Origin: Pseudomonadota bacterium
Lineage (GTDB): Bacteria > Pseudomonadota > Alphaproteobacteria > UBA1280 > JAAZVW01
Length of the DNA stretch: 64,000 nucleotides
Direction: 5' to 3'
Assembly (NCBI GenBank): GCA_018623135.1
Contig: JAAZVW010000001.1
Coordinates: 23,024 to 87,023 of the forward strand
Part shown: positions 1 to 26,175 of the stretch, piece after piece
How positions within the stretch are numbered: the first letter of the stretch is position 1
Layout of the letters: the number at the start of each line of letters is the position of its first letter
Made by a program: the position numbers and the translations under genes
The notes under the pieces: model-generated
Told to the model about the DNA's origin: nothing
Databases searched by the model: none
Seen by the model: the letters and a program-made list of their open reading frames with translations, nothing else

Positions 1-282
1 ATCGCCTGCGCCGTCTGATGTGTTTTTGTTAAAATCTCTAATTAATACTTCGGCGGCTAAGTTAATCGCTGAATAGCTATTGTATTTAAGCTGTTGAGAT
101 TCTGTAATTGCACTAAGCCTTGTTGTGCTTTGGTTTAGGTTTGTCATTTGCAAGGTCATAAATACGGCAACTAAGCCTGTAACACCTAAAACAGCAATAA
201 GAATTAATCCTGAATTATGTGCCGATTTTAAGACAAATTTAGGTGCACATAGTAGGTATAAACATCTGTTGATAAAAGCCAT
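1..282 (-). CDS. gspK: type II secretion minor pseudopilin GspK-like, N-terminal part (gene continues beyond the window start)
   Basis: Reverse-strand translation from the ATG at 282 gives MAFINRCLYLLCAPKFVLKSAHNSGLILIAVLGVTGLVAVFMTLQM..., a hydrophobic pseudopilin-like N-terminus. It lies immediately downstream of gspJ in the operon and the start is 1 nt from the gspJ stop. Confidence 0.5.
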   Translation of the reverse strand, partial: MAFINRCLYLLCAPKFVLKSAHNSGLILIAVLGVTGLVAVFMTLQMTNLNQSTTRLSAITESQQLKYNSYSAINLAAEVLIRDFNKNTSDGAGD

Positions 283-283: not shown

Positions 284-844
284 TTATTTAAGCTCCACAA
301 CAATAGGGAAGGTGCGCGACCAACCAGTTTCAACATCGTTACCTAAGGTAAGTTTAATAGCGATAGGTGTTTTATTATTTAGCCAAGTATTCAGCCATTG
401 TTTTTTATCATTTAGATATTTAATACTGTAGTCATCTACGGGGATAAGATAGGTTGTGAGAGGCTCTTTGCCGTTTAAATTGGTCAACTTATCTACCGCT
501 GTGCGGGTAAGGTAGGTTTTACCATCTTGCGGATGAGACTCAAATTTATAAGAGAGTAATTCTAGACCAGATTTAGGCATAGGCTCATCTTCTTTAATGC
601 TTGCAACTTTGATATAGCGCGTAAATGAGAATCCTTGGGTATCGCCTTTAAATCCAGATCTGAAATTTTCAATGTCTTCTTCTATTTTAAGCAAAGTATA
701 ATAGGTTTGTTCTTGCTGTTGCAAACGCTCATCTGCATGGTTGGTGAATGTTTGGAATAAAACAGACCCTAGGCTTGTCATTAAAATAGCCATTAAAGAA
801 AGTGCGATAAGCACTTCAATAAGTGTAAAACCTTTAATTTTCAT
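284..844 (-). CDS. gspJ: type II secretion minor pseudopilin, GspJ-like, with prepilin-type N-terminal methylation motif
   Basis: N-terminus MKIKGFTLIEVLIALSLMAIL fits the G-F-T-L-I-E prepilin cleavage/methylation motif. Its 186 aa size and position after gspH support GspJ rather than GspI. Confidence 0.55.
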   Translation of the reverse strand: MKIKGFTLIEVLIALSLMAILMTSLGSVLFQTFTNHADERLQQQEQTYYTLLKIEEDIENFRSGFKGDTQGFSFTRYIKVASIKEDEPMPKSGLELLSYKFESHPQDGKTYLTRTAVDKLTNLNGKEPLTTYLIPVDDYSIKYLNDKKQWLNTWLNNKTPIAIKLTLGNDVETGWSRTFPIVVELK

Positions 845-1352
845 CGCTAAAGCTTTCTACAACAAGTGGCATTTGTGTGCTGTTACTTATAAGTTTAAAA
901 CCTTTGTGATTGTCGTTGTTATCAATAAGAATAAGTTCAAAAGCAGGGGGTGTTGTAAAGCCTGAAAGGTTAAAGATAAAAGGCTCATTTTCATAGTCTT
1001 TATCAGCAATAATTTTTTGGATGCTTAAACGACTTGGTTTAAACTCTTTTGGTTCAAAACGCTCGATTTTGATTTCTTCAGAGCTTTCTTTAAAGGGGTC
1101 TATAAGCAGGTTTTGGTTTTTATATGTTGCAGTAATACTGTTTTCTGCAGGGTTTATCTCTATGCTTACAGATGCGTTTTGTTTTATACAGTCTTTACGC
1201 AATTGCTCCATAAAGGCGCGCAGCTGATTAGCTTCTTGTCTTGGGTTTAAGTGGTCTGCAGACGGGAATTGAGGCACTAAAAAGGCGGCCATTCCCCCAA
1301 TAATTGCAAGAACAACCAGCAATTCAAGAAGAGTAAAGCCGCCAATTTTCAT
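834..1352 (-). CDS. gspH: type II secretion minor pseudopilin, GspH-like
   Basis: N-terminus MKIGGFTLLELLVVLAIIGGMAAF is a prepilin motif. It is 172 aa and sits directly downstream of gspG. Confidence 0.6.
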   Translation of the reverse strand: MKIGGFTLLELLVVLAIIGGMAAFLVPQFPSADHLNPRQEANQLRAFMEQLRKDCIKQNASVSIEINPAENSITATYKNQNLLIDPFKESSEEIKIERFEPKEFKPSRLSIQKIIADKDYENEPFIFNLSGFTTPPAFELILIDNNDNHKGFKLISNSTQMPLVVESFSDEN

Positions 1353-1382: not shown

Positions 1383-1805
1383 TTATTCCCAGTTTGTGAT
1401 ATCAGCGTTATCTTCTGTACCACCTTTTTTACCATCAGCACCGTAAGACATAAGGTCATAGCCTGATTTAGACTGAATACCAGGGCTTAAATAAATATAG
1501 TCATTATCCCAAGGGTCTTTAGGTAGTTTTTGCATATAACCACCATCTTTCCAGTTTTTAGCGCCAGCTGGTTTTTCAACCAGTGCTTTAAGACCTTGGT
1601 TTGTTGTTGGGTATTTACGATTATCTAGCTTGTAAAGTTCAAGCGCTTGCTGAATTCCTTTAAGCTGCATTTCCGCTTGTGTGCGGCGTGCTTTTTCAGG
1701 CGCATCAAAAATTTTAGGGGCAACAAAGGTTGCTAGCACACCAATAATTACAATAACAACAAGTAGTTCCATAAGTGTGAAACCTGAAAGGCGATTATTC
1801 TTCAT
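1383..1805 (-). CDS. gspG: type II secretion major pseudopilin GspG
   Basis: MKNNRLSGFTLMELLVVIVIIGVLATFVAPKI is the canonical GspG N-terminus. The protein is 140 aa. Confidence 0.9.
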   Translation of the reverse strand: MKNNRLSGFTLMELLVVIVIIGVLATFVAPKIFDAPEKARRTQAEMQLKGIQQALELYKLDNRKYPTTNQGLKALVEKPAGAKNWKDGGYMQKLPKDPWDNDYIYLSPGIQSKSGYDLMSYGADGKKGGTEDNADITNWE

Positions 1806-1807: not shown

Positions 1808-3067
1808 TTATCCTCCAGCGAGTGTGTTTAGTTCAAAAATAGGTAGTAAAACAGCAATCATAATAAAGGCAATAAGCCCACCCATAAGCATAAGAAGTAA
1901 AGGCTGAATAAGTGTAGTTAAACCTTTAAGACTATTTTTAAGCTCGGTGTTATTTGCGCTATATAAACGCGCAAGCATTTGTGGCAATCTGCCAGAACTC
2001 TCGCCCACACGTGTCATATTAATAAGTAAGCTTGGGAAGCATTTTGCTTCTTTCATAGCGCGAGCTAAGGGCACACCTTCACGTACTTGTGTTTGCATAT
2101 GGTCAATCTTATCACCAATATAAGCATTTGGCATAAGTTTTTTAGAAATTTCTAATGATTTAAGCATAGGCACACCTGCACTTAATAAGGAAGAAAGAGC
2201 ACCTGTAAAACGTACCAATGCAATTTGTTCAAAGAGCTTACCGATTTTAGGAAGTTTTAGCAGTGTTCTATCTTGTATTTTTTTAGCCTGAATGTTTTTA
2301 CGTATAAATATTTTATAGCTGAAAGCCAGTAGGCACAGGCCAATTAAAAGCAGTAAGCCATGGTTTTGTAGCCAGTTACTTGTATTGAGTAAAAATATTG
2401 TGGCTTCTGGCAGAGCTTGCCCCATATCTGCAAACATTTCAGTTATTTTAGGCACAACAGAAACTAATAAAAAGCTGATAAGTGCCAAACCAACAACAAG
2501 CATTAAAACAGGGTAGGTAAGTGCAGATTTAAGCTCTGCAGTTAGCGCCTGCCTTTCTTCTAAAATATCAGCAAGTTCTAATAAAACACTACCCAATTTA
2601 CCTGTGCTTTGTGCGGCGTAGACCATATTTACATAAAGGTTGTTAAAGTACTTAGGGTGTTCTAGTAGTGCTTCATCTAAGCGTTTGCCTTCAGAAACTT
2701 CCGTACGTACTTGTTGTAGCACCTGAATAAATCCTCGGCTTTCTGCCTGATCTATCAGCGTATCTAAAGATTCGATAACCGGCATGCCCGCATCTACAAG
2801 TGTGGCAAATTGTCGTGTAAAGGCAACAAGTTCTTTAAAGGATACTTTACCACCACCAATTTCTAAAGCCATAATATCAGCAAGTTGCATGGTTTTAAGC
2901 TGGCTTACGTTAAAAGAGGCAGACTTTTTAGAGCTTTCTGAAATATGACTTACGAAGAGGCCTTGGTTTTTGAGTGTACTTTTTGCAGAAGATAAAGAAG
3001 CCGCTTCTAGGTTTCCTGAAACTTTTTTTCCATCAGCATTAAAAGCGTTGTACTTAAAAAATGCCAT
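1808..3067 (-). CDS. gspF: type II secretion inner-membrane platform protein GspF
   Basis: 419 aa polytopic membrane protein located between gspE and gspG. It shows the GspF/PilC-family duplicated-domain pattern. Confidence 0.85.
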   Translation of the reverse strand: MAFFKYNAFNADGKKVSGNLEAASLSSAKSTLKNQGLFVSHISESSKKSASFNVSQLKTMQLADIMALEIGGGKVSFKELVAFTRQFATLVDAGMPVIESLDTLIDQAESRGFIQVLQQVRTEVSEGKRLDEALLEHPKYFNNLYVNMVYAAQSTGKLGSVLLELADILEERQALTAELKSALTYPVLMLVVGLALISFLLVSVVPKITEMFADMGQALPEATIFLLNTSNWLQNHGLLLLIGLCLLAFSYKIFIRKNIQAKKIQDRTLLKLPKIGKLFEQIALVRFTGALSSLLSAGVPMLKSLEISKKLMPNAYIGDKIDHMQTQVREGVPLARAMKEAKCFPSLLINMTRVGESSGRLPQMLARLYSANNTELKNSLKGLTTLIQPLLLMLMGGLIAFIMIAVLLPIFELNTLAGG

Positions 3068-3079: not shown

Positions 3080-4747
3080 CTAAGACGCTTTTGTTACGCG
3101 GAAAACTTCTTCAAGGGTTGTTTTACCCTGTGAAGCAAGTAAAAGCGCTTCTTGAAAGAGTGTGAGCATGCCTTCAGATTGAGCAAGTTCACGCATTTGT
3201 GTATCAGAAACATTGTCATTTACTAAGCGGCGTAACCCTGGCGTTACTTCTAGCATTTCACAAACAGCGGCACGACCTAAATAGCCTGTTGTTGATGAGC
3301 CAGAAGGCACGGGCGCATAAAGTTTAAGTGGTCTTGGTATTAAATCTTTTGGCAAATTATCTGTAAAGATTTTACGGATTTCAGGTGTTATTTTAATTTC
3401 TTCTTTGCTGCTGTCATCTAACGTACGCAATAGACGCTGTGCAATAACCGCACGCAGTGATGAGCCAACTAAGAAGGGCTCTATACCCATATCAATAAGC
3501 CTTGTTACAGCAGAAGGTGCATCATTGGTATGAATGGTTGTAAGCACTAAATGACCAGTAAGTGAGGCTTGCACTGCAATTTGCGCTGTTTCAGTATCAC
3601 GTGTTTCACCAATAACCACAACATCAGGGTCTTGCCTTAAAATAGAGCGTAAACCTTCTGCAAAGGTAAGCCCGATTTTTGTATTAACTTGTATTTGACC
3701 GATACCATCGAGCTGGTATTCCACTGGGTCTTCAACAGTAACAATGTTAATGTCTGGCTTATTAATCTCACGAATACCAGCGTACAGGGTTGTTGTTTTA
3801 CCAGAACCTGTTGGGCCAGACACTAAAATAATGCCGTTAGGTTCTTTTAAAAGGTTTTGTAATTTTATAAGTTGAGAATCCCTTAGTCCCATATCTTTCA
3901 GCAAAATTGCTTGTTCATCTCTACCTAATAAACGCATAACCACACGTTCACCATGAGATGTTGGTAAAATAGAGATACGCACATCCATTTCTTTACCAGC
4001 AAGTGTTATTTTAAAACGACCATCTTGTGGGAGCCTTGTTTCTGCAATATCAAGCTCAGACATAACTTTTAAACGTGCAGACATAGCGGAATGTAACTTT
4101 TTAGAAGGGGTTACAATCGTGCGTAAAACACCATCTACCCTAAAGCGAATCACAACTTGTTTTTCAAAAGGTTCAATATGGATATCAGAAGCTTTTTCTT
4201 TAATCGCTTGCGCAAGAATAGAGTTAATTAAACGGATAACAGGCGCATCATCGTTTGCATCTAGCAAGTCTTCAGTTGCTTGCAGATCATCTGTTAAACT
4301 TGGTTCTTCAGATAAAGAAGAGGCGACATCTTCAGCTGATTGTTGGATGCGATCAAATGTTGCATTAATAAGGTTTTTAAGTGTACCTTCTGGCATATAC
4401 ACAGGTCGCACACGTAAGTTATGCTCTTTTGCATAATCATCCATAATATCGCTACCTAAATCAGGGTTCGCCATAGCAAATATAATTTGGGTATCATTTT
4501 GGGCCAGGGGAAGGCACTTGTACTCTTTACAAATGCTTAAGTTTAAGGGTGCAACAAGCTCGGCTGTAATGTCATCTGTTACCTCTGTTACCAAAGGTAA
4601 ACCATAGTAATCTGCCGCTTTTTGTTGGGTGTGTGCATCAAATTGCCCTGTGCTTTCTAAAAAGCGATTTAGGGTGAAAAAATCATGCCCAAGATCCGCA
4701 GGGATTTGAATATCAAGTTCTGTTTTAAGGTAATCTGCGTATGTCAT
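3080..4747 (-). CDS. gspE: type II secretion ATPase GspE
   Basis: Walker A GPTGSGKTT is present. It has the secretion-ATPase architecture, is 555 aa, and sits between gspD and gspF. Confidence 0.9.
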   Translation of the reverse strand: MTYADYLKTELDIQIPADLGHDFFTLNRFLESTGQFDAHTQQKAADYYGLPLVTEVTDDITAELVAPLNLSICKEYKCLPLAQNDTQIIFAMANPDLGSDIMDDYAKEHNLRVRPVYMPEGTLKNLINATFDRIQQSAEDVASSLSEEPSLTDDLQATEDLLDANDDAPVIRLINSILAQAIKEKASDIHIEPFEKQVVIRFRVDGVLRTIVTPSKKLHSAMSARLKVMSELDIAETRLPQDGRFKITLAGKEMDVRISILPTSHGERVVMRLLGRDEQAILLKDMGLRDSQLIKLQNLLKEPNGIILVSGPTGSGKTTTLYAGIREINKPDINIVTVEDPVEYQLDGIGQIQVNTKIGLTFAEGLRSILRQDPDVVVIGETRDTETAQIAVQASLTGHLVLTTIHTNDAPSAVTRLIDMGIEPFLVGSSLRAVIAQRLLRTLDDSSKEEIKITPEIRKIFTDNLPKDLIPRPLKLYAPVPSGSSTTGYLGRAAVCEMLEVTPGLRRLVNDNVSDTQMRELAQSEGMLTLFQEALLLASQGKTTLEEVFRVTKAS

Positions 4748-7700
4748 TAACGAACCCTTAATACATGCACAGCGTTTTGTTCAATTGCTTTTTGGTTATC
4801 TGAGCTTAAAGCATAAATGTCAATTTTAGATTTTGAAATACCAGATGCAACAAGAAAATCTTGCACTTGCGAAGCGCGTTTAATGGCTTGTTTACGACCT
4901 GCTGCGCCTTTTGTGGCAGCAGAAAAAGCTCTTACTTCTAAGCGGATAGGTGACCAATCTACAAAAAGATTAGGTATCTTACTCAGTTGAGTTAAGTAAG
5001 CTTCCGCAATTTTGCTAGAGCCATCTTCAAATCCAATAAAAGCAAGTGGGTAAGGTAAGCTTTGTGCTTTTTGAGCGAGGTTCGGTTGTGTGAACAAAGG
5101 CTTAACAAGCTGTGTTTCTTGCAACTGAATTGGCGCTGGATCAATAGGTTTTGTAAGGTTAATAGCTGCTTCTGGCATATTAAGTTTTTTAAGTTCTTTA
5201 GGTTGTGCGAGCTTAACTTCTGGCTGTTTGAGTTTAACAGCATCTTGTTGTACTAATTTAGGTTCTTGGTAAGTAAGATTCGTTTCTGTTGTAGAAACCG
5301 CCGTACCTGTAGAAATTTTTGCTTGCGCTACGGCTTGTTGGCGTTCTTCAAGCAATGGTGCAGGAGCAGAAAATTCTTCTGCAGATGTTGCTGTATTTGT
5401 TTTTTGACCAAGCGGAGCGGATGTTCTTTTCGCCGTAAGCTCAGAAGGAATAGAAGGTGCAAATTCAGCAGATGTACGCATGCGTAAAACATCTATATCC
5501 ATAGCTGCGTTTGAGATCACTGAGTTTTGCGTAAGTAAAGCAGTTTCAGGCATTAGCATAGGCTGTTCACCATCTTCTAGCTGCTTTGCGGCTACAGGTT
5601 GAGCAGGTTTAATAAGTGTTACAGGCTCTTTTGCAATAGGGCGCGCAACTTGCGCTACCTTAATTTCTTTTGGAGCTGCAATGCGGTAATTTTCTGTTTG
5701 TGGGTTTACCTTAACTTGTTTTTGCTCAAGTTTATAAGCTTGGGGCTTTTTTGCACGGCTTTCCTCCTGAATCGGCGTGTTTTGCTGATGGACTTCAGGT
5801 GTTTGATTCGGCTCAATAACAGGCATTATTTGCTGAGCGTTTGTTGGTTTTGGTGTTTTAAATAAACCACGATTTTCATCACGCAGGTGGTTAGGTACCA
5901 TATCTGCTTCTGGGATTTCAACACGTTTTACAAGCGCAGAACCTTTGCGTGGTTTTGTTTTTTGACGCTCACGAATTTGTGTGTATTTATCATTTGTAAT
6001 GCTGTCTAGATCACCGAATGTATTGATGATTTGCGGCTTTAAGAAAACCATAAGGTTTGTTTTGCTATTTTGAACGCGCGAGGATTTAAAGAGTTGACCT
6101 AAACCCCAAATGTTAGCAAGACAAGGGACAGCGGAATTTGCTTCTGTTACATCGTCACGAATAAGACCACCAAGTACAACCATATTGCCGTTTGGTACAA
6201 CAACAGAAGTTTTGATAGAGCGTTTACGTGTAATCAGGTCGGCGGCATTTTCGTTATTTGGCGCGACAGATGAAATTTCTTGATAGATTTTCATTTGGAT
6301 AAAACCGTTTTCAGAAATTTGAGGGGTCATGCGCAATGTCAGACCGATATCCTGACGTTCGATTGTTTGAAATGGATCGGCGCTACCTGAAGAATTTGAG
6401 TAGGAACCAGTCACAAATGGTACGTTATCACCGACAATGATTTCTGCTTCTTCGTTATCCAGTGTTAGAAGCTGAGGTGTTGATAGAATGTTGATGCTTG
6501 ATTCTGACTTTAAGGCATTGATTAACATACCAATATTTGCAAATTCGGTGCCGTTAAAATCAATTGTTCCGCCCGCTAAACCGAATGAAAAACCGCTTGG
6601 TAATGCTAAAGGATTTGAGGCTAAGTTATTAATAAGACCATTAGCAGATGAGGTGACACCACCAAAAGGTACAATGCCAGAGCCTGAACCGATACCTTCT
6701 GTCGCGCGCCATTCGATGCCAAATTGGTCTGCTGTATCTGCGGATACTTCCATAATAAGGGCTTCAACATAAACTTGAAGGCGGCGGATATCGAGACGAC
6801 GGATAACTTCTTGCAGGGTGACCATGTCGACAGGATCTGCTGAAAGAACAAGAGCATTTGTTGTTTCATCTGCAACCACAGAAACAGGTGCACGAAATGC
6901 TGTAAGAGAGGCTAAAGATGATTTTTTAACTTGGTCGTTGTTGTCTTGAGCGTCTTCTTCTGCTTCTTCGTTACGTGTAATAACTTCGTTAAGTACTTCA
7001 GCTAAGTTTTTAGCATCTGCATGTTTAAGGTAGAAAATTTCTACAGATTTTACTTTAGCATTTGTGTCTAGATCTAGTTTATCCACAAGGCGTCTGATCG
7101 CTTGCAAATCTGAATAATCAGCAACTACAATAAGTTTATTACTTGTTACTTCAGGAATAATTTGAACGGGTGTACCTTCACGCGATTTAACTTCGTAGAT
7201 ACGGTCAATAATATCAGCGACTTGGGCTGCATCGGCATGGTTAAGTGGTACAAGCTCGATAGCACCTGCCGATGATGGTGTATCAAGATCTTTAATAATG
7301 CTTTCTAAGCGTGAAATATTTGCAAAATTTTCTGTAATAATAAGGCTATTTGTTGGCCTAAATGAGCTCAAGTTAGCTGATTTTGAAAGAAGAGGCTTTA
7401 TGATAGGAATAACAGAATCCACGCTTAAATATTTAAGTTTAAGAATGCGTGTGATGATTTCTGCCGGGCGGGCATCATCGGGTTCTGCTCGGCCTTTAAT
7501 TGTTTGAATTTGCTCGGATGTTGCTTCAGATGAACGGATAACTTTAAAGCCATTGCCCCCATCTTCGACTAATGCGTAGCCAACACCTTGAAGAAGACTT
7601 TCGTAGACTTCTAGCACAGCGTCTTCTGGTACTGGGTTAGGGCTAATAATGCTTACTTTGGCAGAAGCGTTAGAATCTAATGTAAAATTGTATCCTGTTA

Positions 7701-7857
7701 CTTCTGCCACGTAGCGTGTTAAATCTGTAATTGCAACGTTTTCAAAGTTAAAAACCACGCCTTCACTTGGTTGGGCATAGGCATAGCTAGAGCCTAAAGC
7801 CGTAAGGCCAAGTGCTAGTGTTTTTAAAGAGCTTTTTATTGTTGTTGTAAGGCTCAT
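4747..7857 (-). CDS. gspD: type II secretion secretin GspD with a roughly 375 aa C-terminal extension (Pro/Gln/Lys-rich linker plus OmpA-like peptidoglycan-binding domain)
   Basis: The N0/N-domains and secretin core are recognisable (VVVPNGNMVVLGGLIRD...NLMVFLKPQIIN). After about aa 660 comes a long low-complexity tract. The protein ends IRLEVRAFSAATKGAAGRKQAIKRASQVQDFLVASGISKSKIDI...NAVHVLRV, an OmpA C-terminal-domain-like pattern. Confidence 0.85.
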   Translation of the reverse strand: MSLTTTIKSSLKTLALGLTALGSSYAYAQPSEGVVFNFENVAITDLTRYVAEVTGYNFTLDSNASAKVSIISPNPVPEDAVLEVYESLLQGVGYALVEDGGNGFKVIRSSEATSEQIQTIKGRAEPDDARPAEIITRILKLKYLSVDSVIPIIKPLLSKSANLSSFRPTNSLIITENFANISRLESIIKDLDTPSSAGAIELVPLNHADAAQVADIIDRIYEVKSREGTPVQIIPEVTSNKLIVVADYSDLQAIRRLVDKLDLDTNAKVKSVEIFYLKHADAKNLAEVLNEVITRNEEAEEDAQDNNDQVKKSSLASLTAFRAPVSVVADETTNALVLSADPVDMVTLQEVIRRLDIRRLQVYVEALIMEVSADTADQFGIEWRATEGIGSGSGIVPFGGVTSSANGLINNLASNPLALPSGFSFGLAGGTIDFNGTEFANIGMLINALKSESSINILSTPQLLTLDNEEAEIIVGDNVPFVTGSYSNSSGSADPFQTIERQDIGLTLRMTPQISENGFIQMKIYQEISSVAPNNENAADLITRKRSIKTSVVVPNGNMVVLGGLIRDDVTEANSAVPCLANIWGLGQLFKSSRVQNSKTNLMVFLKPQIINTFGDLDSITNDKYTQIRERQKTKPRKGSALVKRVEIPEADMVPNHLRDENRGLFKTPKPTNAQQIMPVIEPNQTPEVHQQNTPIQEESRAKKPQAYKLEQKQVKVNPQTENYRIAAPKEIKVAQVARPIAKEPVTLIKPAQPVAAKQLEDGEQPMLMPETALLTQNSVISNAAMDIDVLRMRTSAEFAPSIPSELTAKRTSAPLGQKTNTATSAEEFSAPAPLLEERQQAVAQAKISTGTAVSTTETNLTYQEPKLVQQDAVKLKQPEVKLAQPKELKKLNMPEAAINLTKPIDPAPIQLQETQLVKPLFTQPNLAQKAQSLPYPLAFIGFEDGSSKIAEAYLTQLSKIPNLFVDWSPIRLEVRAFSAATKGAAGRKQAIKRASQVQDFLVASGISKSKIDIYALSSDNQKAIEQNAVHVLRVR

Positions 7858-7900: not shown

Positions 7901-8707
7901 TTAAGCTTCCCCATGCAGGGTTTTAAGTAGGCGGGCATGCAATGTTGGGTTTGATGCCACCATTGTTGTGCTTTCTGCTGTTAAAGGTTCACCTTTAATA
8001 TCGGTTACTTTACCACCAGCTTCGACCATAACAAGACGACCAAGAGCGATTTCGATAGGGCTTAAACCTACAGCAACAAAACCATCTGCACGACCAGAAG
8101 CGACTTGTAAAATATCGGCTACTGGGTTTTGAGTCATACGACAAGAAACGCCTGTTTTTAAGAAATCTGACATTGCAGAAATAACGTAAGAGGCATCTTT
8201 ATTCGGTTTGCCTTCTAGACGTGAAGGTACGTGAAAGTGGAAAAGACCTTGTACAAGAGATGTACGGCCTGTTACACGGTAACGCATTTCGTTATCTTTT
8301 GCGCCTTCGCCTTTTGCACAAGTAAAGTCTGTATCTTGTACAAAGTCGTAAACAAGAGCCTCAATAGGTTCGTCTTTTTCTGTAACTACGTATGCAGAAA
8401 GACCAGGTTCGATTGAGTGCATAAAGTTTGCGTAGCTTGCAATAGGAGACGCCATGATTTTAACAGAGTCGGTACCTTCCTGCTGAAGACCTTCTTTAAT
8501 ATCAATTGTGCTTTCTGGGTATGTTTCACTTAAAACATTAAATTGAAAGCCGTTTACCTTGTTAATTGCCTTTTCTAGAGATTGTTCTAGACCAGCTGTT
8601 TTAACTTGTTGACGTGCCATATCACCAAAAAAGCGGTTAAGGTCTTTAGATGATTTGTGACACATGCGTAGAAGATTTTGCAAACGCGGTGCTGTGTTAA
8701 TAGCCAT
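7901..8707 (-). CDS. inositol monophosphatase family protein (SuhB-like, divergent)
   Basis: C-terminal region ...VASGRADGFVAVGLSPIEIALGRLVMVEAGGKVTDIKGEPL resembles IMPase/SuhB motifs (WDxAAG...EAGGxVTD). Confidence 0.55.
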   Translation of the reverse strand: MAINTAPRLQNLLRMCHKSSKDLNRFFGDMARQQVKTAGLEQSLEKAINKVNGFQFNVLSETYPESTIDIKEGLQQEGTDSVKIMASPIASYANFMHSIEPGLSAYVVTEKDEPIEALVYDFVQDTDFTCAKGEGAKDNEMRYRVTGRTSLVQGLFHFHVPSRLEGKPNKDASYVISAMSDFLKTGVSCRMTQNPVADILQVASGRADGFVAVGLSPIEIALGRLVMVEAGGKVTDIKGEPLTAESTTMVASNPTLHARLLKTLHGEA

Positions 8708-8709
8708 AA

Positions 8710-9273
8710 TTATTTAGCCCTTTCAACGTAAGTGCCATCGGCTGTTGAAACAACGATGCGTTCACCCGTTTCGATGAATTGTGGCACCATGACTGTTTCG
8801 CCGTTTTCGACTTTAGCTGGTTTATAAGATGAAGAAACAGTTTGACCTTTAATAGCGGCATCTGCTTCTAAAATTTCCATTGTAACTTGAGAAGGAAGCT
8901 CAACACCGATTGGGTTTGCTTCGTGCATTTCAATTTGGATTTCCATATTTTCTTGAAGCCATTTGGCTGCGTCGGCAATAACATCTTCTGCAATGGCGAT
9001 TTGTTCGTAAGATTCCATATCCATGAAGTTATGCATATCGCCTTCTGAGTAGAGGTATTGCATTTGCTTTTGTTCTAGCACGGCACGCTCAACTGATTCT
9101 GTTGAACGGAAACGCTCATTAAGTTTTGTGCCTTGAGTGACTTCTTTCATTTCTGCTTGAACGTATGCGCCGCCTTTACCCGGCTGTGTGTGTGAAATTT
9201 TTAGAACGCGCCATAGTTTGCCTTGGTGCTCAAGAACATTACCAGGGCGGATTTGGTTTGCATTGATCTTCAT
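8710..9273 (-). CDS. efp: elongation factor P
   Basis: MKINANQIRPGNVLEHQGKLWRVLKISHTQPGKGGAYVQAEMKEV... is the canonical EF-P KOW-domain N-terminus. The protein is 187 aa. Confidence 0.9.
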   Translation of the reverse strand: MKINANQIRPGNVLEHQGKLWRVLKISHTQPGKGGAYVQAEMKEVTQGTKLNERFRSTESVERAVLEQKQMQYLYSEGDMHNFMDMESYEQIAIAEDVIADAAKWLQENMEIQIEMHEANPIGVELPSQVTMEILEADAAIKGQTVSSSYKPAKVENGETVMVPQFIETGERIVVSTADGTYVERAK

Positions 9274-9380: not shown

Positions 9381-10181
9381 ATGAATATTAATTTTATGAA
9401 AAAGATGTGTTTTTGTTTTGTTTCAATGGGTTGTGCTGTTGTTGCAAGTGCCGAATCTGTGGTGGAAAAAACATCTTGGCAGCTTAAAGGGGTTTGGGCG
9501 CAAAAAGAGCTAGATATTAAAATACATCAAAAAGATGAGTGGCTTATACTGGATAACTTTTTGCCAGAGATGAATGTTTTATATTCTGCTCAAAAAGAGG
9601 TGTTTTACATTGATGCGACTTGGCAAGAGCAGGGGGTGTTTAGGATTTCTGTCATTAATGATTTGCCTAAATTTCAGATGGGGCGTTTTAAGGCTGTTTC
9701 TGATAAAAATAAAGATAAAATAAGGTATTCTCACTTTGTAAATCGTAAAAACTGTGGCTTATTGGAGACGAGGGCGCCTAAAAAGAATGAAGAAGTTTTG
9801 TTGGGCTTAAGGCAGGTAAACCAAATTTTATTCTTAAGAGAGTTTTTGACAAAACCTATTGAGGGACCACTTGGTGATTGTAGTTTGTTTGAGGTGAAAG
9901 AAGTTGTTTCTGAACTTGTAGGAGAGCCTATGTCATACTATTCAGGCAAGAACCAATATAATTTTTCTAAAACCTATAAGGGTGATTTGTATGATGAATT
10001 TGAGGTAAATATGATACAGGGGGATAAGTCTCTTTCTGCTAAGGATTTAGAGGTTATTAGGCTTTATTACCAATCTGATAAGATTAAAAAGTTTTTTAAA
10101 CAAGAGGTTGTTCAGCAATTAACAGAGCAGGAAAAGTCTAGGTCTTTAAAGGTGTTACAGGCCATTGAACAAGAAGAATAA
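9381..10181 (+). CDS. hypothetical secreted protein (signal peptide)
   Basis: RBS aaggtgg lies 4 nt upstream of the ATG. The N-terminus is hydrophobic (MKKMCFCFVSMGCAVVASA) and ends in an AxA site. No recognisable domain. Confidence 0.4.
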   Translation: MNINFMKKMCFCFVSMGCAVVASAESVVEKTSWQLKGVWAQKELDIKIHQKDEWLILDNFLPEMNVLYSAQKEVFYIDATWQEQGVFRISVINDLPKFQMGRFKAVSDKNKDKIRYSHFVNRKNCGLLETRAPKKNEEVLLGLRQVNQILFLREFLTKPIEGPLGDCSLFEVKEVVSELVGEPMSYYSGKNQYNFSKTYKGDLYDEFEVNMIQGDKSLSAKDLEVIRLYYQSDKIKKFFKQEVVQQLTEQEKSRSLKVLQAIEQEE

Positions 10182-10487: not shown

Positions 10488-11021
10488 ATGAAGAAAACCC
10501 TTTTATCTCTTTCTGCACTTGCTCTTTGCGCTATGTCATTGGATGCCAATGCGGCGACAGAAGCTAAAGAAATGCAGGTTGTTGGGAAAGTTGCAGGTTT
10601 TGCAAATTCTATTGATAAATCTAAACCCGTTCAATTAGGTGTTGTTTTTGATGGCGCGAATGCTACGTCTCAGGCTGATTTTGATGCTGTGAAAGGCATT
10701 ATTGGTGCTGGGCTAAAAACGGGTAAGGTCACAATTAATTTTGTACCAGTAGCTATTTCTGAGCTTGGCTCTAAAGTGACTTCTGTTGATATGCTTTTTG
10801 TAACAGAAGGTCTTTCTGGTAAAATGGCAGAAATTAATTCTGTCGCTAAAAATAATAAGAAATTAACAGTTTCTACAGATATGTCTTGTGTTGAAACTGG
10901 TAACTGCCTTGTAGGTGTAGATGTAAGTTCTGGTGTTAAAGTATTTTTAAACCGTGCTTCAGTTGACGCAATAGGTATTGAATTTGATGCCGCATTTAAA
11001 TTCATGGTTAAAGAAATCTAG
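10488..11021 (+). CDS. periplasmic protein, possibly YfiR/DUF4154-like
   Basis: Signal peptide MKKTLLSLSALALCAMSLDANA. It is about 177 aa and is translationally coupled (20 nt gap) to a TonB-dependent receptor. The YfiR/DUF4154 family assignment is tentative. Confidence 0.35.
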   Translation: MKKTLLSLSALALCAMSLDANAATEAKEMQVVGKVAGFANSIDKSKPVQLGVVFDGANATSQADFDAVKGIIGAGLKTGKVTINFVPVAISELGSKVTSVDMLFVTEGLSGKMAEINSVAKNNKKLTVSTDMSCVETGNCLVGVDVSSGVKVFLNRASVDAIGIEFDAAFKFMVKEI

Positions 11022-16102: not shown

Positions 16103-17104
16103 TTATTTAATTTTATCGGCCATGCCACAAGCACCGAAAGCTTCGTAACGGGCAATACATTCTTTTTCCATAGCTTCGATAGCTGGTTTTAAATAGTGAC
16201 GTGGGTCAAAAGCGCCGGGTTGTTCTTGTAATGCTTTGCGTATGGCGCCTGTCATCGCCATGCGATTGTCGGTATCAATATTTACTTTGCGTACGCCAAG
16301 TTTAATACCTTTAACAATTTCTTCTAAAGGTACGCCAAATGTTTGTGGCATATTACCGCCATATTGGTTAATGATGTCCTGTAGTTCTTGCGGTACAGAT
16401 GAACTACCGTGCATAACTAAATGTGTGTTTGGAATAGCGGCGTGGATTTTGGCGAGTTGATCCATCGCTAGCACTTCGCCATCGGGCTTGCGTGTAAATT
16501 TATAAGCGCCGTGGCTGGTGCCGATAGCAACAGCAAGAGCATCTACGCCTGTGCGCAAAACAAAGTCTTTTGCTTGCTCAGGGTCTGTTAAAAGCATGTC
16601 TTTATCCAGTTTTCCTTCAAAGCCATGGCCATCTTCTTTATCACCTTCACCTGTTTCTAGGGAGCCTAGGCAACCTAGTTCACCTTCTACCGATACGCCT
16701 TTAGGATGTGCAAGATCTACAACTTTTTTAGTGATTTCAACGTTGTATTCGTAAGATGCTGGGGTTTTACCATCTTCTTCTAATGAACCATCCATCATGA
16801 CAGATGTAAAGTTGTTGGCAATGGCAGAGGCACAGGTTTCTAGTGAGTTACCATGGTCTTGATGCATAACAATAGGAATATGAGGGTAAGATTCTACCGC
16901 TGCTTGGATCATATGTTTTAAGAAAATATCACCAGCATAAGAGCGGGCACCACGGCTTGCTTGTAAAATAACAGGTGCGTTGCATTTTTCTGCCGCTTGC
17001 ATAATAGCACGTACTTGTTCTAGGTTATTTACGTTAAAAGCGGGTAGGCCGTAGCTGTGTTCTGCGGCATGATCTAAAAGTTTTCGTAATGAAATAAGAG
17101 CCAT
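16103..17104 (-). CDS. fba: fructose-bisphosphate aldolase, class II
   Basis: [40 protein letters not shown]... is the canonical class II FBA. The protein is 333 aa. Confidence 0.9.
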
Positions 17105-17134
17105 GGTGTTACCTTTTATATTTTAAAAATTTAC

Positions 17135-18316
17135 TTATTGTTTAAGGGCTTCGACAGCAGCTAAAGGCGTGCCTTCTAGAAGTTTAAGCATAGCGCCACC
17201 ACCTGTTGAAACAAAATCTATACCTTTGGTAATGTGCGCGGCTTTTAGGGCTGCAAGAGTATCGCCACCGCCGACTGTTGAGTAGGCATTTACGCCTGCA
17301 ATAGCACGGGCAACAGCTTCTGTACCTTTACAGAAAATAGGTGTTGCTCCGACAGGGCCATTCCATAATATACCGCCAGATTCTTTACAGTGAGCAAGCC
17401 ATGCTGCTTGTGTCTTAGTCCCGATATCAACAGCCACCATAACAGGTGGGATGTCTGTTTTTGTAGAGACGTCTCTGGTTGCTACACCTGGTTTAATTTC
17501 GATTGCGACGCTTAAATCGTCCGGAAGTACAAGCTTTGTTTTTTTCTCGTAAGCGAGGTCTATAAGTTCTTGAGCAAGTGGTACTTCGCTTGGCTCGTAC
17601 ATGGATTTACCTACTTTAGTACCCTGTGCAACAAAAAATGTATTGGCCATAGCGCCACCAATAAGCACACGGTCTACCATTGGAATAAGGCGGGCAAGTA
17701 GTTTTGCTTTTGTTGCCACTTTTGCACCGCCAATGATAAGGGTAATTGGCTTTTTAGCTTTTTTTAAGAAACCCATAAGGTTTGTGAGCTCTTTTTCCAT
17801 AAGTAAGCCAACAGCGGCGTTAGTGTTCATAAATTTGACAATGCCTTCTGTTGAGGCGTGAGCACGGTGCGCTGTTGCAAAGGCATCGTTAATAAAAATA
17901 TCGATACCGAAGGCAAGTTTTTCTGCAAATGTGGCGTCATTCTTTTCTTCTTCGGGGTGAAAACGTGTGTTTTCGAGCAGAAGAATTTGCCCTGCAGTGA
18001 GCTCTGCGATAGCGTGGGTGCGTTCCTCGCCAATGCAATCTTTCGCAAAGGCGACTTTTTGATGTAGTAAAGCTGCAAAATGATGTGCCACAACTTCTAG
18101 GCTTAAGTCTTTCACATATTCGCCATTAGGGCTTCCAAGGTGAGACATAAGCACAATTTTTGCGCCTTTGGCTGATAAGAAGCGAATGGTATCTATATGG
18201 CAACGAAGTCTTGTATCATCGGCGACTTTACCATCTTTAAGTGGGACGTTAAAATCGACACGAACGAGAACGACTTTATCTTTATAATCATCAAATGAAC
18301 GTAGTGTTTTGATCAT
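17135..18316 (-). CDS. pgk: phosphoglycerate kinase
   Basis: VVLVRVDFNVPLKDGKVADDTRL... matches the PGK N-domain. The protein is 393 aa. Confidence 0.9.
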   Translation of the reverse strand: MIKTLRSFDDYKDKVVLVRVDFNVPLKDGKVADDTRLRCHIDTIRFLSAKGAKIVLMSHLGSPNGEYVKDLSLEVVAHHFAALLHQKVAFAKDCIGEERTHAIAELTAGQILLLENTRFHPEEEKNDATFAEKLAFGIDIFINDAFATAHRAHASTEGIVKFMNTNAAVGLLMEKELTNLMGFLKKAKKPITLIIGGAKVATKAKLLARLIPMVDRVLIGGAMANTFFVAQGTKVGKSMYEPSEVPLAQELIDLAYEKKTKLVLPDDLSVAIEIKPGVATRDVSTKTDIPPVMVAVDIGTKTQAAWLAHCKESGGILWNGPVGATPIFCKGTEAVARAIAGVNAYSTVGGGDTLAALKAAHITKGIDFVSTGGGAMLKLLEGTPLAAVEALKQ

Positions 18317-18355
18317 TTATTTTAGCCTTAGTTAAGTTATATCTGTTGTTGTGGT

Positions 18356-19366
18356 TTAAAGTTTTGCCAAATAGGCGGCTGTATCGAGCATGCGGTTAGA
18401 AAAACCCCATTCGTTATCGTACCAAGATAGAATTTTAACCAGCTTACCATCTGTTGAAACACGTGTTTGTGTGACATCAAATACAGAAGATGCAGGGTTA
18501 TGGTTAAAGTCGCAAGAAACAAGGGGGCGTTCGTTAATATCGAGTACGCCTTTAAAGGCATCTGTATCTGCGGCTTTACGGATAAGTTCATTTACTTGCT
18601 CTACCGTTGTAACCGTTTGAGAAACAAAGCTTAAATCTACCACAGAAACATTAATAGTTGGCACGCGCATAGAAAAACCATCTAGCTTGCCATTGAGTTC
18701 TGGTAGCACAAGACCAACGGCTTTTGCTGCGCCTGTTGTTGATGGAATCATTGACTGGGCTGCGGCACGGGCACGTCGTACATCTTTGTGCGCGACATCT
18801 AGTAATGATTGGTCGTTTGTGTAAGCGTGAATGGTTGTCATAAGACCTGATTCTATACCTAATGCCTCATGCAGGACTTTAGCAACTGGTGCAAGGCAGT
18901 TTGTTGTACAAGACGCATTAGAAATGATTGTATCTTCTGCGGTTAAATCGGTGTGATTTACGCCGTACACAACGGTATTATCCACATCTTCACCTGGTGC
19001 AGAAATAATAACTTTTTTGGCACCGGCTGTAAGGTGTTTACCTGCTGTTTCTTTGGAACGGAACAGACCTGTGCATTCCATAACAATATCAATACCAAGT
19101 TCTTGCCATGGTAAATCTTCTGGATTACGTTCTGAAAAAACAGAAATTTCGCTGTTGTTGACAATCATTTTATCGTCTTTAAAGCCGATATCTGCATTAA
19201 ATTTGCCATGAGTGGTATCAAATTCTAGTAGGTGTGCATTTGTTTCCATTGGAGCGAGGTCGTTAATGGCTACAATTTCGATATCTGTACGTTTAGATTC
19301 ATGCAATGCGCGTAATACGTTGCGTCCGATACGGCCAAAACCGTTAATAGCTACTTTAATTGTCAT
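18356..19366 (-). CDS. gap: glyceraldehyde-3-phosphate dehydrogenase
   Basis: [20 protein letters not shown], the catalytic SCTTNCLAP and 336 aa size. Confidence 0.9.
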
Positions 19367-19383
19367 GGTTTTGTTCCCTTTAT

Positions 19384-21393
19384 TTAGTATTTATGCGTTT
19401 TAATTTTGTTGTTCTCGATGATCTGTTGGGCTGTTTCGCAAATATTTTCAACAGTTAGACCAAAATGTTGGTAGAGGTCTTCTGCTGGAGCGGAGCTACC
19501 AAAAGAATCTATTGCGATAATGGCACCTTTATCGCCCACGTAGCGGTCGAGCCCGAAAGAAGAGGCGGCTTCTACAAAAATGCGATTAGGGTTATCTAGT
19601 GAGAGTATTTGCGCTTGTGTATCATCGTCTTGTTCTTCAAAAAGTTCGACACAAGGCATAGAAACTACTTTGGCTTGAATGCCTGATTGTTTAAGTTTTT
19701 GTTGTGCTTCTAGGCATAGGTGAACTTCTGAGCCTGAGGCGATAAGTACAACATCGGCTTTTGTTTCTGGCTCAGACAAAATGTAGGCGCCAGTACGGCA
19801 GAAGTTTTCTTCTGTATATGTGTTACGCAATGCGGGTAGGTTTTGCCTTGAAAGAATATAGGCAGAAGGTGCAAAAGTATCTTCTAAACCAATTTGCAAG
19901 CATTCGATTGTTTCTGTTAAATCCGCAGGGCGGTAGGTGTATAAATTAGGAATAGCACGTAAAGAGGCTAAATGCTCAATAGGTTGGTGTGTTGGACCGT
20001 CTTCCCCTAAGCCAATAGAATCATGTGTAAAAATATACTGTACGGGAATTTCCATAAGTGCAGAAAGGCGCACAGCTGGTTTCATGTAGTCTAAAAAGCT
20101 TAAGAATGTGCCGCCACAAGGTCTTAACCCGCCGTAAAGTTGCAGACCATTCATAATAGCGGCCATAGCATGTTCACGTATACCGTAATGTACGTATTGA
20201 CCTGAAGCGTCATCTGCTGAAATAACCGCCATCTTTTGTGTTTGCGTGTTATTAGATGGTGTTAAATCTGCTGAGCCAGAGATAAGTTCCGGCATATGAG
20301 GGGCAATAGCTTCTAGGCAAGCACCAATTGCTTTACGTGTTGCCATACTGCTTTGGTTTTGACTGGCTGTTTCTTTTAAATTATCTAGCGCTTCAAAAGC
20401 TTTATCGGGTACCTGATAGCTGATAGCATTTTGGATGCTAAGTTGTTCGGATGCTGGTAGTTTTTGCCATTTTTGCAGCCATTCTATATACATATCACGT
20501 GATTTATCCGATGTATTAAGCCAAGCTGAGTGAATATCTTCTGGGATATCAAAAGGCGCTTCTTGCCAGTTGAAGGCTTTGGCAACTTTCTCACGTTCTT
20601 CTTGCCCTAAAGGAGAACCATGTGCAGATGATTTACCTGCATGTAGCGGGCTACCTAAACCAATTGTTGTTTTAAAACGAATAAGTGTTGGCTTATTTTT
20701 GGAGGCTCTGGCTTTTTTAATTGCGGCGTGGATATCATCTGTATTATGGCCATCGGCTTCAAGTACTTGGAAGCCGTATGCTTTAAAACGAGCGGTAATA
20801 TCTGTTGATTGTGTAAGCTTTGTTGCACCATCGATAGATATGCCATTGTCATCAAATAACACAATGAGTTTATTAAGTTTGTGGTGGCCTGCGAATTCGC
20901 AGGCTTCGTGGCTAATGCCTTCCATAAGACAGCCATCCCCAACTGTTACGTAGGTATAGTTATCAAAAAGTTCTGTGCCATGTTTTGCTGCCATTATTTT
21001 TTGAGCAAAAGCCATGCCGACTGCATTTGCAATACCTTGCCCAAGTGGACCTGTTGTAGTTTCGATACCTGGAAGGGCACCAAATTCGGGGTGGCCTGCT
21101 GTAAGGCTACCGAATTGGCGGAAGTTTTTAAGGTCATCGAGATGAACATCATAGCCTGTTAAATGTAGTAGACTATATAACAAAGCAGACCCATGGCCGT
21201 TTGAAAGCACAAAGCGATCTCGGTTTGGCCATAGAGGATCATCTGGATTAAAATGCATAAAGTCTTTAAATAAAACGGTGACAATATCTGCCATGCCAAG
21301 AGGCATGCCAGGGTGACCTGAATTTGCTTGGTTGACCATATCTATGCTTAAAAAGCGAAGAGCGTTAGAAAGTTGTTTGTAATTTGTGCTCAT
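19384..21393 (-). CDS. tkt: transketolase
   Basis: [22 protein letters not shown] matches the TPP-binding N-terminus. The protein is 669 aa. Confidence 0.9.
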
Positions 21394-26172: not shown

Positions 26173-26175
26173 TGT

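What the first reader, a model, noticed from the sequence alone, without database searches (positions are those of the whole stretch)
4747..5880. GspD secretin fused to a long low-complexity linker and a C-terminal OmpA-like peptidoglycan-binding domain
GspD is 1036 aa, against a typical 650-750. After the secretin core (ends about NLMVFLKPQIIN) there is a roughly 270 aa Pro/Gln/Lys/Glu-rich tract with imperfect repeats (KLKQPEVKLAQPKELKKL). The terminal roughly 100 aa (FIGFEDGSSKIAEAYL...IRLEVRAFSAATKGAAGRKQAIKRASQVQDFLVASGISKSKIDI...NAVHVLRV) matches the OmpA C-domain pattern (GhtD..G...N..LS.rRA..V...L...G). In classical T2SS, peptidoglycan anchoring is delegated to GspAB/ExeAB or FimV-type partners. 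A built-in PG-binding module on the secretin itself would be an unusual solution. The operon also appears to lack gspC upstream and gspI, since the gene order is D-E-F-G-H-J-K.
Basis: partly seen in the sequence, partly recalled or inferred. Interest (0 to 1): 0.6.

Follow-up and report, generated by a model that had tools for sequence, protein, structure and literature searches.

The report
Secretin with built-in OmpA-like wall anchor
The outer-membrane pore protein of a type II secretion system here carries an extra flexible tail ending in an OmpA-type domain, the fold other envelope proteins use to hold on to the cell wall. It is a real, rare, conserved gene fusion, but wall binding is not proven.

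Summary
Window 4747-7857 (- strand) is one intact 1036-aa gspD. It encodes a normal GspD core, a short S-domain-like stretch, a roughly 260-aa disorder-type linker, and a 106-aa C-terminal domain.

The C-terminal domain is OmpA-like. Pfam scores it at the borderline, but a family profile hits only OmpA-like chains in the PDB. An AlphaFold model (pLDDT 93) superposes on OmpA, Pal and MotB domains (TM up to 0.82).

It is not a frameshift artefact. The same architecture occurs in separate assemblies of this species and in three more distant lineages. There the domain has dN/dS of about 0.07.

The fusion is rare. Of the 120 closest GspD clusters, only these four exceed 800 aa and only they carry OmpA.

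Caveats: the canonical DAP-binding Asp is missing while the Arg is invariant, so wall binding is inferred. T4P PilQ secretins already carry their own wall-binding AMIN domains.

New context: the operon ends with a second, inner-membrane coiled-coil OmpA-like protein. A relative without the T2SS keeps the tail as a free-standing secreted protein next to that partner.

Verdict: a new variant of a known kind, of moderate interest.

The parts
4747..7857 (-). gspD, 1036 aa, one uninterrupted ORF. Its stop TAA overlaps the gspE ATG by 1 nt (TAATG).
   Evidence: TIGR02517 GspD 514.5 bits against a cut-off of 351.
7774..7857 (-). Predicted Sec signal peptide, residues 1-28 (…SSYAYA|QP).
   Evidence: Read from the sequence. 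Inferred, not tool-tested.
6022..7773 (-). Canonical GspD body, residues 29-612: N0, three Secretin_N repeats and the secretin domain.
   Evidence: PF21305 at 36-106, PF03958 x3, PF00263 at 448-611. Core end.
5857..6021 (-). S-domain-like segment, residues 613-667. It is basic (pI 9.6) and conserved in relatives that lack the tail.
   Evidence: Sequences, composition. The assignment as an S-domain is inferred from position.
5068..5856 (-). Linker, residues 668-930. It is A/P/Q/K/E/T-rich and disorder-like. Orthologue linkers are 144-342 aa. It contains 4 copies of a hydrophobic-x-L-x-[KRQT]-P motif.
   Evidence: dN/dS 0.15 between L007 and L001.
4750..5067 (-). OmpA-like domain, residues 931-1036 (Pfam match 943-1023 = window 4789-5031). 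The invariant Arg994 is at 4876-4878. Ser979 (4921-4923, gap-free register) or Ala980 (4918-4920, one-residue-gap register) replaces the canonical Asp. Ala1029 replaces a near-invariant Arg at 4771-4773.
3080..4747 (-). gspE (T2SS ATPase), start overlaps the gspD stop by 1 nt.
1808..3067 (-). gspF.
1383..1805 (-). gspG, the major pseudopilin.
834..1352 (-). GspH-like minor pseudopilin, 172 aa.
   Evidence: N_methyl hit and a weak TIGR01708 hit.
284..844 (-). gspJ, 186 aa.
   Evidence: PF11612 27.8 bits, TIGR01711.
1..282 (-). 5' part of gspK, which runs off the window. In the conspecific locus L005 the operon continues K, L, M, a 263-aa protein with no family match, and a 551-aa TM-coiled-coil-OmpA-like protein.
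7901..9273 (-). Upstream neighbours on the same strand: efp (8710-9273) and a suhB-like inositol monophosphatase gene (7901-8707). There is no gspC. This synteny is kept in all relatives.

Best explanation
This is a genuine single-polypeptide type II secretion secretin. Its periplasm-facing C-terminus has been extended by a long flexible tether that ends in a divergent OmpA-like domain.

Proposed mechanism:
- Each assembled secretin (15 subunits in solved GspD structures) would hang a crown of tethered OmpA-like domains under the outer membrane.
- These domains dock non-covalently on the peptidoglycan layer. They probably act together with the inner-membrane coiled-coil OmpA-like protein encoded at the end of the same operon.
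- This would position and brace the pore in the wall. In classical systems that job is done by separate proteins (GspA/B, ExeAB, OutB).

Status of each step:
- Shown: the architecture, the fold, conservation under purifying selection, rarity, and the operon context.
- Inferred: the periplasmic location of the tail, peptidoglycan binding, and cooperation with the second OmpA-like protein.
For: 1. One intact ORF with a GspD core well above family cut-offs. Its stop overlaps the gspE start by 1 nt.

2. The same architecture is seen independently:
- in other assemblies of this species (P0121 from two Logan runs; P0122 from ENA covers the core-tail junction);
- in three more distant lineages, P0002/L007, P0003/L001-L002 and P0004/P0123.

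3. OmpA-like identity:
- PF00691 scores 29.1 bits on the isolated tail.
- The profile of six tails hits 44 PDB sequences, all OmpA-like. They include Rv0899, PA0833, YiaD, DotK, Pal, RmpM, MotB and MotY.
- The AF2 model has pLDDT 93.2 and pTM 0.86.
- Foldseek gives TM 0.81-0.82 to 9uu2 and to the A. baumannii OmpA-peptidoglycan peptide complex 3td5.

4. The Arg equivalent to AbOmpA Arg286 is the only invariant column in a 52-sequence alignment.

5. Purifying selection: dN/dS is 0.07 for the domain and 0.15 for the linker between L007 and L001.

6. T2S secretin C-termini were not detected on the cell surface (PMC4453517). The C-terminal S-domain binds pilotin lipoproteins, which take secretin monomers to the outer membrane through the Lol pathway (PMC6532946).

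7. No GspA, GspB or GspC family hit in the operon. Secretin assembly or anchoring through peptidoglycan is an established need (PMC9239104, PMC6532946).

8. Other envelope machines use OmpA-like subunits, as the fold and profile hits show: DotK, PorE, MotB/MotY and TssL.
Against: - The canonical Asp that pairs with the Arg in DAP binding is absent from the whole subfamily: Ser/Ala in the window, Ala/Pro, Ala or Ser/Leu (by register) in the relatives. An Asp sits next to that position only in one strain variant.
- The window's copy also lacks a near-invariant Arg (A1029).
- Between the two strains of this species, the OmpA-like domain shows 3 replacement and 1 silent change (dN/dS about 0.9). 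The counts are tiny, so constraint in this lineage is not demonstrated.
- The linker is far longer than needed to reach the wall.
- A T2SS-less relative keeps the tail as a stand-alone protein. The tail's function is therefore not strictly tied to the secretin.
- No binding experiment or ligand modelling was possible.
Confidence: 0.6

Rival explanations
1. The OmpA-like domain is mainly a protein-protein docking module, not a wall binder. It pairs with the OmpA-like domain of the inner-membrane coiled-coil protein encoded at the end of the operon. The pair forms an inner-membrane-to-secretin strut, analogous in function to GspB/OutB or GspC.
For: - The two genes co-occur in all three loci where the operon end is visible (L001, L005 and the P0004 contig). 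They stay adjacent in L004, where the T2SS is gone.
- Sister lineages lacking the tail also lack the partner gene where the contig allows a check (L019).
- Each domain lacks one half of the canonical Asp/Arg pair. The tail lacks the Asp; the partner keeps the Asp but has Gln for the Arg.
- No GspC or GspB is recognisable.
- OmpA-like domains appear in solved protein complexes among the fold hits, such as TolB-Pal and YfiB-YfiR.
Against: - No interaction was modelled or measured.
- The partner resembles PRK09039-type 'peptidoglycan-binding protein' and MotB, which are wall binders.
- The invariant Arg in the tail argues for a retained ligand pocket.
Confidence: 0.2
2. In the window's own lineage the tail is a decaying remnant with little or no present function.
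For: - The window's domain is the outlier of the family at 34-36% identity to all others.
- It has lost residues conserved elsewhere: GY to AF, the acidic residue before GRK, and NRVD to NAVH.
- dN/dS between the strains is about 0.9 for the domain and 0.41 for the linker.
Against: - The ORF is intact over 1.1 kb of tail in all assemblies of the species.
- The hydrophobic core is conserved well enough for a pLDDT 93 model.
- The substitution counts are too small for a test: 3 against 1.
Confidence: 0.1
3. The tail is exposed on the cell surface, as reported for type IV pilus secretin C-termini, and the OmpA-like domain binds something outside the cell.
For: BfpB and PilQ C-termini were found to be extracellular (PMC4453517).
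Against: - The same study did not detect T2S secretin C-termini on the surface (PMC4453517).
- The protein is a GspD equivalog with an S-domain-like segment.
- The characterised OmpA-like domains among the fold hits (OmpA C-terminal domain, Pal, MotB periplasmic domain) are periplasmic.
Confidence: 0.04
4. The long ORF is an artefact: a frameshift or misassembly joined gspD to a separate downstream OmpA-family gene.
For: The length is unusual, and a stand-alone version of the tail exists in L004.
Against: - Identical architecture in at least three assemblies of this species and in three other lineages from different data sources.
- The tail has no start codon/signal peptide pair of its own, and it abuts gspE with a 1-nt overlap.
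Confidence: 0.01

Closest known systems
Canonical T2SS secretin GspD (TIGR02517; PulD, EpsD, ExeD, XcpQ)
   Same: Signal peptide, N0, Secretin_N repeats, secretin domain and an S-domain-like C-terminal segment. It sits at the head of a gspE-F-G-H-J-K-L-M operon.
   Different: About 370 extra C-terminal residues: a disorder-type linker plus an OmpA-like domain. No recognisable gspC, gspI, gspA, gspB or pilotin in the operon.
OmpA C-terminal / Pal / MotB OmpA-like peptidoglycan-binding domains (PF00691)
   Same: The same beta-alpha-beta-alpha-beta-beta fold (TM up to 0.82). The Arg equivalent to AbOmpA Arg286 is conserved. Like E. coli OmpA, it is an outer-membrane barrel joined through a hinge to a periplasmic OmpA-like domain.
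   Different: - It lacks the Asp of the Asp/Arg DAP-binding pair.
- The loop before the last strand is shorter.
- It has a subfamily-specific G-R-K-x-A-x-x-R motif.
- It scores only at the Pfam threshold.
- The hinge is 144-342 aa long.
GspA/GspB (ExeAB, EpsAB) and GspB/OutB scaffolds
   Same: The proposed job is the same: coupling the secretin to peptidoglycan for assembly or anchoring (PMC6532946, PMC9239104).
   Different: Those are separate inner-membrane proteins with unrelated domains that contact the secretin N0 domain. Here the wall-type domain is part of the secretin chain, at its C-terminus. No homology.
PilQ secretins of type IVa pili with N-terminal AMIN domains
   Same: They are a precedent for a secretin carrying its own peptidoglycan-binding domains, which there decide where the pore assembles (PMC10653833).
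   Different: A different fold (AMIN), at the opposite end of the protein, in a different machine. That paper states that T2SS and T3SS secretins lack AMIN domains. No AMIN hit here.
OmpA-like subunits of other envelope machines (DotK of Dot/Icm, PorE of T9SS, TssL/TagL of T6SS, MotY/MotB)
   Same: An OmpA-like domain recruited into a trans-envelope machine. Several are direct profile or fold hits.
   Different: Those are separate subunits. None is fused to a secretin, and none belongs to a T2SS.
Treponema pallidum Tp0624 OmpA-like domain (5jir)
   Same: It appears among the fold hits. From my own recollection, it is a divergent OmpA-like domain whose canonical binding residues are not conserved.
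   Different: An unrelated multidomain protein.

Membership tests
T2SS secretin GspD (TIGR02517) | Full-length match above the curated equivalog cut-off | tested here: met
   514.5 bits against a cut-off of 351.35, residues 36-621.
T2SS secretin GspD (TIGR02517) | N0 domain, Secretin_N repeats and C-terminal secretin domain | tested here: met
   PF21305 55.2 bits, PF03958 107.7 bits (3 stretches), PF00263 158.6 bits.
T2SS secretin GspD (TIGR02517) | Encoded with the T2SS ATPase, platform and pseudopilin genes | tested here: met
   gspE, F, G, H-like, J and K in the window; K, L and M in the conspecific L005.
T2SS secretin GspD (TIGR02517) | Forms a multimeric outer-membrane pore with a periplasmic C-terminus | not testable with these tools
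   Inferred from homology and from PMC4453517 and PMC6532946.
OmpA-like domain (PF00691) | Sequence match reaching the Pfam gathering score (27.2 bits) | tested here: inconclusive
   24.6 bits in the full protein, 26.6 bits in the 377-aa tail, 29.1 bits in the last 127 aa. The family profile against the PDB gives E 6.9e-7 and only OmpA-like hits.
OmpA-like domain (PF00691) | beta-alpha-beta-alpha-beta-beta fold superposable on solved OmpA-like domains | tested here: met
   AF2 pLDDT 93.2 and pTM 0.86. Foldseek gives 95 PDB hits at E<=1e-3; all 50 listed are OmpA-like; TM 0.81-0.82 to 9uu2 and 3td5. The MSA used included canonical OmpA-like sequences.
OmpA-like domain (PF00691) | Conserved Arg that binds the DAP carboxylate (AbOmpA Arg286) | tested here: met
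   Arg994 is the only invariant column in the 52-sequence alignment. It aligns to the RA of LSxxRA in PDB chains.
OmpA-like domain (PF00691) | Conserved Asp of the GHTD motif (AbOmpA Asp271) | tested here: not met
   Depending on alignment register the equivalent residue is Ser979 (gap-free, 15 residues before the Arg) or Ala980 in the window. By the same two registers it is Ala or Pro in P0002/3, Ala in P0004 and Ser or Leu in P0130. Only strain variant P0121 has an Asp at the adjacent position.
OmpA-like domain (PF00691) | Binds peptidoglycan | not testable with these tools
   No experiment or ligand docking was available.
GspA/GspB (ExeAB) or GspC accessory proteins in the operon | A family match for any operon product | tested here: not met
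   Pfam and NCBIfam scans of all operon products gave no GspA, B, C, I or N hit. The 263-aa product has no hit at all, and none in the PDB.
AMIN-type secretin (PilQ-like) | N-terminal AMIN domain(s) | tested here: not met
   No AMIN hit. TIGR02515 PilQ scores 204 bits, below its cut-off of 284.

The most novel reading that the evidence does not exclude
The linker-OmpA-like tail and the inner-membrane coiled-coil OmpA-like protein may form a two-part envelope tether of their own. The T2SS operon is nested between them, with the secretin serving as the outer-membrane anchor of the tail.

Support:
- One relative has no T2SS at this locus. There the tail survives, with its own signal peptide, as a free-standing protein beside the same partner.
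- By identity (tail domain and SuhB) that relative branches between two fused lineages. Its state therefore looks like secondary loss of the secretin core with retention of the tail.

If true, the tail has a function independent of secretion. The fusion would couple pore placement to a pre-existing inner-membrane-wall-outer-membrane bridge.
Probability: 0.25. Interest if true: 0.65.

Novelty: new variant of a known kind. Interest (0 to 1): 0.5.

Why it matters
How secretins get through and hold on to the cell wall is solved differently in each well-studied system: pilotins, ExeAB/GspAB, OutB, or AMIN domains in PilQ. A natural T2SS secretin that carries its own OmpA-type module would be a compact, genetically simple fifth solution.

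It offers a direct test of whether wall attachment alone can replace the missing accessory proteins. The stand-alone version in a T2SS-less relative, and the paired inner-membrane OmpA-like protein, give a natural 'domain-swap' series for that test.

The carriers are uncultured Pseudomonadota known only from metagenomes, so the practical impact is limited for now.

Tried and rejected
1. A profile search of the 5.8-billion-protein set with the six tail domains returned nothing, not even the parent proteins. It was uninformative.

2. A chimeric secretin+OmpA profile (A3) was meant to surface other secretin-OmpA fusions. It returned only secretin-only fragments and again missed the parent clade. 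I therefore could not survey all secretins for independent OmpA fusions. Rarity is shown only among the 120 closest GspD clusters and the 150 closest tail-domain relatives.

3. The first AF2 run used only 6 sequences and gave pLDDT 63, although Foldseek still returned only OmpA-like hits. It was replaced by the 52-sequence run.

4. Foldseek against AFDB50 was unavailable.

5. Genome and metagenome scans with the tail profile added only the known RI_95 MAG and one P0002-like fragment.

6. Literature searches found no description of a secretin-OmpA fusion. The accession search for the RI_95 MAG found nothing.

7. Frameshift artefact: rejected (see rivals).

8. DNA-level tandem repeats in the linker: essentially none.

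9. Strain-level dN/dS for the tail rests on counts too small to interpret. It is also confounded by mosaic divergence along the gene.

10. No att-like direct repeats were found around the prophage.


Full report
**What is there**

Window 4747-7857 on the minus strand is a single 1036-codon ORF. NCBIfam calls it a GspD equivalog (TIGR02517, 514.5 bits against a cut-off of 351). Pfam finds N0, three Secretin_N repeats and the secretin domain between residues 36 and 611.

The core ends at NLMVFLKPQIIN (residue 612). It is followed by four parts:
- Residues 613-667 are a basic segment, also conserved in relatives without the tail. From its position I take it to be the S-domain.
- Residues 668-930 are a linker.
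- Residues 931-1036 are a basic C-terminal domain (pI 9.8).
- The stop codon overlaps the gspE start by one base (TAATG).

The linker is 60% disorder-promoting residues and 2.3% aromatic. A, P, Q, K, E and T each make up 9-12%. At DNA level it has almost no tandem repetition.

**Is the terminal domain OmpA-like?**

Yes, by four lines of evidence:
- PF00691 matches residues 943-1023, right at the threshold. It scores 24.6 bits in context and 29.1 bits for the isolated last 127 aa, against a cut-off of 27.2.
- A profile of the six available tail domains (A1) hits 44 distinct PDB sequences, all OmpA-like. They include Rv0899, PA0833, YiaD, DotK, Pal, RmpM, MotB and MotY, with a best E of 6.9e-7.
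- The same profile finds 2513 proteins at E<=1e-3 among 1.84 billion representatives.
- An AlphaFold model built on a 52-sequence alignment (A2) has pLDDT 93.2 and pTM 0.86, with a beta-alpha-beta-alpha-beta-beta topology.

Foldseek against the PDB returned 95 hits at E<=1e-3, and all 50 listed are OmpA-like domains. TM is 0.81-0.82 to 9uu2 and to the A. baumannii OmpA-peptidoglycan peptide complex 3td5. An earlier six-sequence model was poor (pLDDT 63) but also hit only OmpA-like folds.

**Is it an artefact?**

No. The identical architecture is present in:
- a strain variant of the same species assembled from two separate sequencing runs (P0121; L005, L006);
- an ENA gene call that spans the core-tail junction (P0122);
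- three more distant lineages, of 1102, 1135 and 924 aa, from ENA, NCBI, JGI and Logan assemblies.

Between two of the distant lineages the domain has dN/dS 0.07 and the linker 0.15, with synonymous sites near saturation. The tail is therefore a maintained part of the protein.

**How unusual is it?**

Among the 120 closest GspD clusters the median length is 663.5 aa. Only these four clusters exceed 800 aa, and only they carry a precomputed OmpA hit.

Among the 150 closest relatives of the tail domain in 1.84 billion representatives, none outside this clade contains a secretin core. Genome and metagenome scans added only fragments of the same lineages.

I could not survey all secretins, because two searches designed for that failed. 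I found no paper describing such a fusion.

The idea of a secretin with its own wall-binding domain is not new. PilQ secretins carry PG-binding AMIN domains at their N-termini, and the same paper notes that T2SS and T3SS secretins lack them (PMC10653833).

**Can it bind peptidoglycan?**

This is inference. Characterised OmpA-like domains bind diaminopimelate through an Asp and an Arg (Asp271 and Arg286 in A. baumannii OmpA; PMC12108004).

- The Arg (window Arg994) is the only invariant column in the 52-sequence alignment.
- The Asp is not conserved. The exact equivalent depends on alignment register. Gap-free spacing from the Arg puts it at Ser979 in the window, Ala in P0002/3 and P0004, and Ser in the stand-alone homologue. 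A one-residue gap puts it at Ala980, Pro, Ala and Leu respectively. Only the other strain of this species has an Asp, at the adjacent position.
- The wider subfamily has R-A-Y-A in place of G-H-T-D, and a shortened loop before the last strand. At least one member is labelled Alphaproteobacteria.
- The window's copy is the most divergent, at 34-36% identity to the others. It has also lost a near-invariant Arg (NAVH for NRVD).
- Between the two strains the domain shows 3 replacement changes and 1 silent change. That is too few to test but gives no sign of constraint.

**Context**

Upstream on the same strand are efp and a suhB-like gene, not gspC. Downstream are gspE, F, G, an H-like pseudopilin, J and the start of K.

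The conspecific locus L005 shows the rest of the operon:
- K, L and M;
- a 263-aa membrane protein with no family or PDB match;
- a 551-aa protein with N-terminal membrane segments, a long coiled coil and a second OmpA-like domain.

This second domain is PRK09039- and MotB-like. It keeps the canonical Asp but has Gln for the Arg.

The two other lineages whose operon end is visible have the same two extra genes. Sister lineages share the efp-suhB-gspD…gspM synteny, but their GspD is 715-794 aa without OmpA. Where the contig continues (L019), they have neither extra gene.

**A stand-alone version**

In locus L004 the suhB-like gene is followed directly by a 346-aa protein. It has a signal peptide, a Pro/Lys/Glu linker and the same tail domain (42% identity to P0003 over 142 residues).

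Next comes the orthologue of the coiled-coil OmpA-like protein (E 5e-41), then the same lpqE-like neighbour as in L001. There are no T2SS genes.

By identity, L004 sits between the window lineage and the P0002-4 clade:
- tail domain 41-42% against 34-36%;
- SuhB 41% to L001 against 26-31% for the window.

With T2SS-bearing outgroups at the same locus, parsimony makes L004 a secondary loss of the secretin core and the T2SS with retention of the tail. This rests on few markers. The low-GC window lineage may simply be a long branch.

**Mechanism I commit to (confidence about 0.6)**

The tail leaves the S-domain region on the periplasmic side of the pore, and the flexible linker lets the OmpA-like domains reach the wall. 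There they bind non-covalently, probably alongside the inner-membrane coiled-coil OmpA-like protein. This braces or positions the secretin and substitutes for the missing GspA/B/C-type partners.

- Shown: architecture, fold, selection, rarity and synteny.
- Inferred: topology (supported by PMC4453517 and PMC6532946), ligand, and partnership.

**Rivals**

- The domain is chiefly a docking module for the second OmpA-like protein (0.2).
- The window's copy is decaying (0.1).
- The tail is surface-exposed (0.04).
- The ORF is an artefact (0.01).

**Verdict**

This is a new variant of a known kind: a secretin plus a cell-wall-type module, achieved here by a C-terminal OmpA-like fusion in a T2SS. 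It is confined to a small uncultured clade. Interest is moderate (0.5).

Noticed in passing
L005 21069-22724 (same species, beyond the window's left edge); L001 21322-23055; L004 2436-4040: A 534-577-aa protein closes the T2SS operon. It has N-terminal membrane segments, a long coiled coil and a second OmpA-like domain (PRK09039/MotB-like). It keeps the canonical Asp but has Gln in place of the canonical Arg, the mirror image of the secretin tail.
   Followed up: partly
L004 1267-2307 (protein P0130): A stand-alone signal peptide + Pro/Lys/Glu linker + the same tail domain. It sits between the suhB-like gene and the coiled-coil OmpA-like gene, with no T2SS genes at the locus. It is probably a survivor of T2SS loss.
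   Followed up: partly
L005 20270-21061; L001 20485-21294: A 263-269-aa protein with an N-terminal membrane segment lies after gspM. It has no Pfam, NCBIfam or PDB match and is found only in the lineages with the fused secretin. It could be a divergent GspC or GspN.
   Followed up: partly
window 6000-7750 compared with L005: Divergence between the two strains is mosaic. The gspD core shows 5-11% mismatches, almost all synonymous (dS 0.32). The tail and most flanking genes show 0-3% (dS 0.01-0.05). This suggests recombination within the gene.
   Followed up: partly
window 4918-4920 (residue 980): A strain polymorphism lies next to the canonical OmpA Asp site. The window and the ENA assembly have Ala, while the Logan assemblies have Asp. 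A nearby EDG/EGD swap also differs between strains.
   Followed up: partly
window 5068-5856, and the linkers of P0002, P0003 and P0004: A short hydrophobic-x-L-x-[KRQT]-P motif (e.g. VKLKQP, IALKRP, LSLKKP) recurs 3-8 times per linker. Shuffles give about 0.2-0.8. The pattern was defined after looking at these sequences, so the enrichment is post hoc.
   Followed up: partly
P0005-P0008 (closest GspDs without OmpA): These secretins also have 130-180-aa C-terminal extensions beyond the core, unrelated to each other's or to the OmpA tail. The GspD C-terminus seems to be a hot spot for appended sequence in this group.
   Followed up: no
window 31454-40727: Phage genes: a large terminase subunit (31454-32854), a P22-like portal (33183-34874) and a tail-collar protein (39462-40727). 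tRNA-Cys and tRNA-Asn lie at 26098-26251 and tRNA-Ser at 43598-43687. No flanking direct repeats were found.
   Followed up: partly
window 16103-21393: A run of minus-strand genes includes transketolase (19384-21393). Aldolase and PGK were identified in the matching stretch of L005. Relatives carry RuBisCO nearby (L001), which suggests a carbon-fixing lifestyle.
   Followed up: no
window 9381-10181 and 10488-11021: Two predicted secreted proteins (266 and 177 aa) with no Pfam match, just upstream of a TonB-dependent receptor gene.
   Followed up: no
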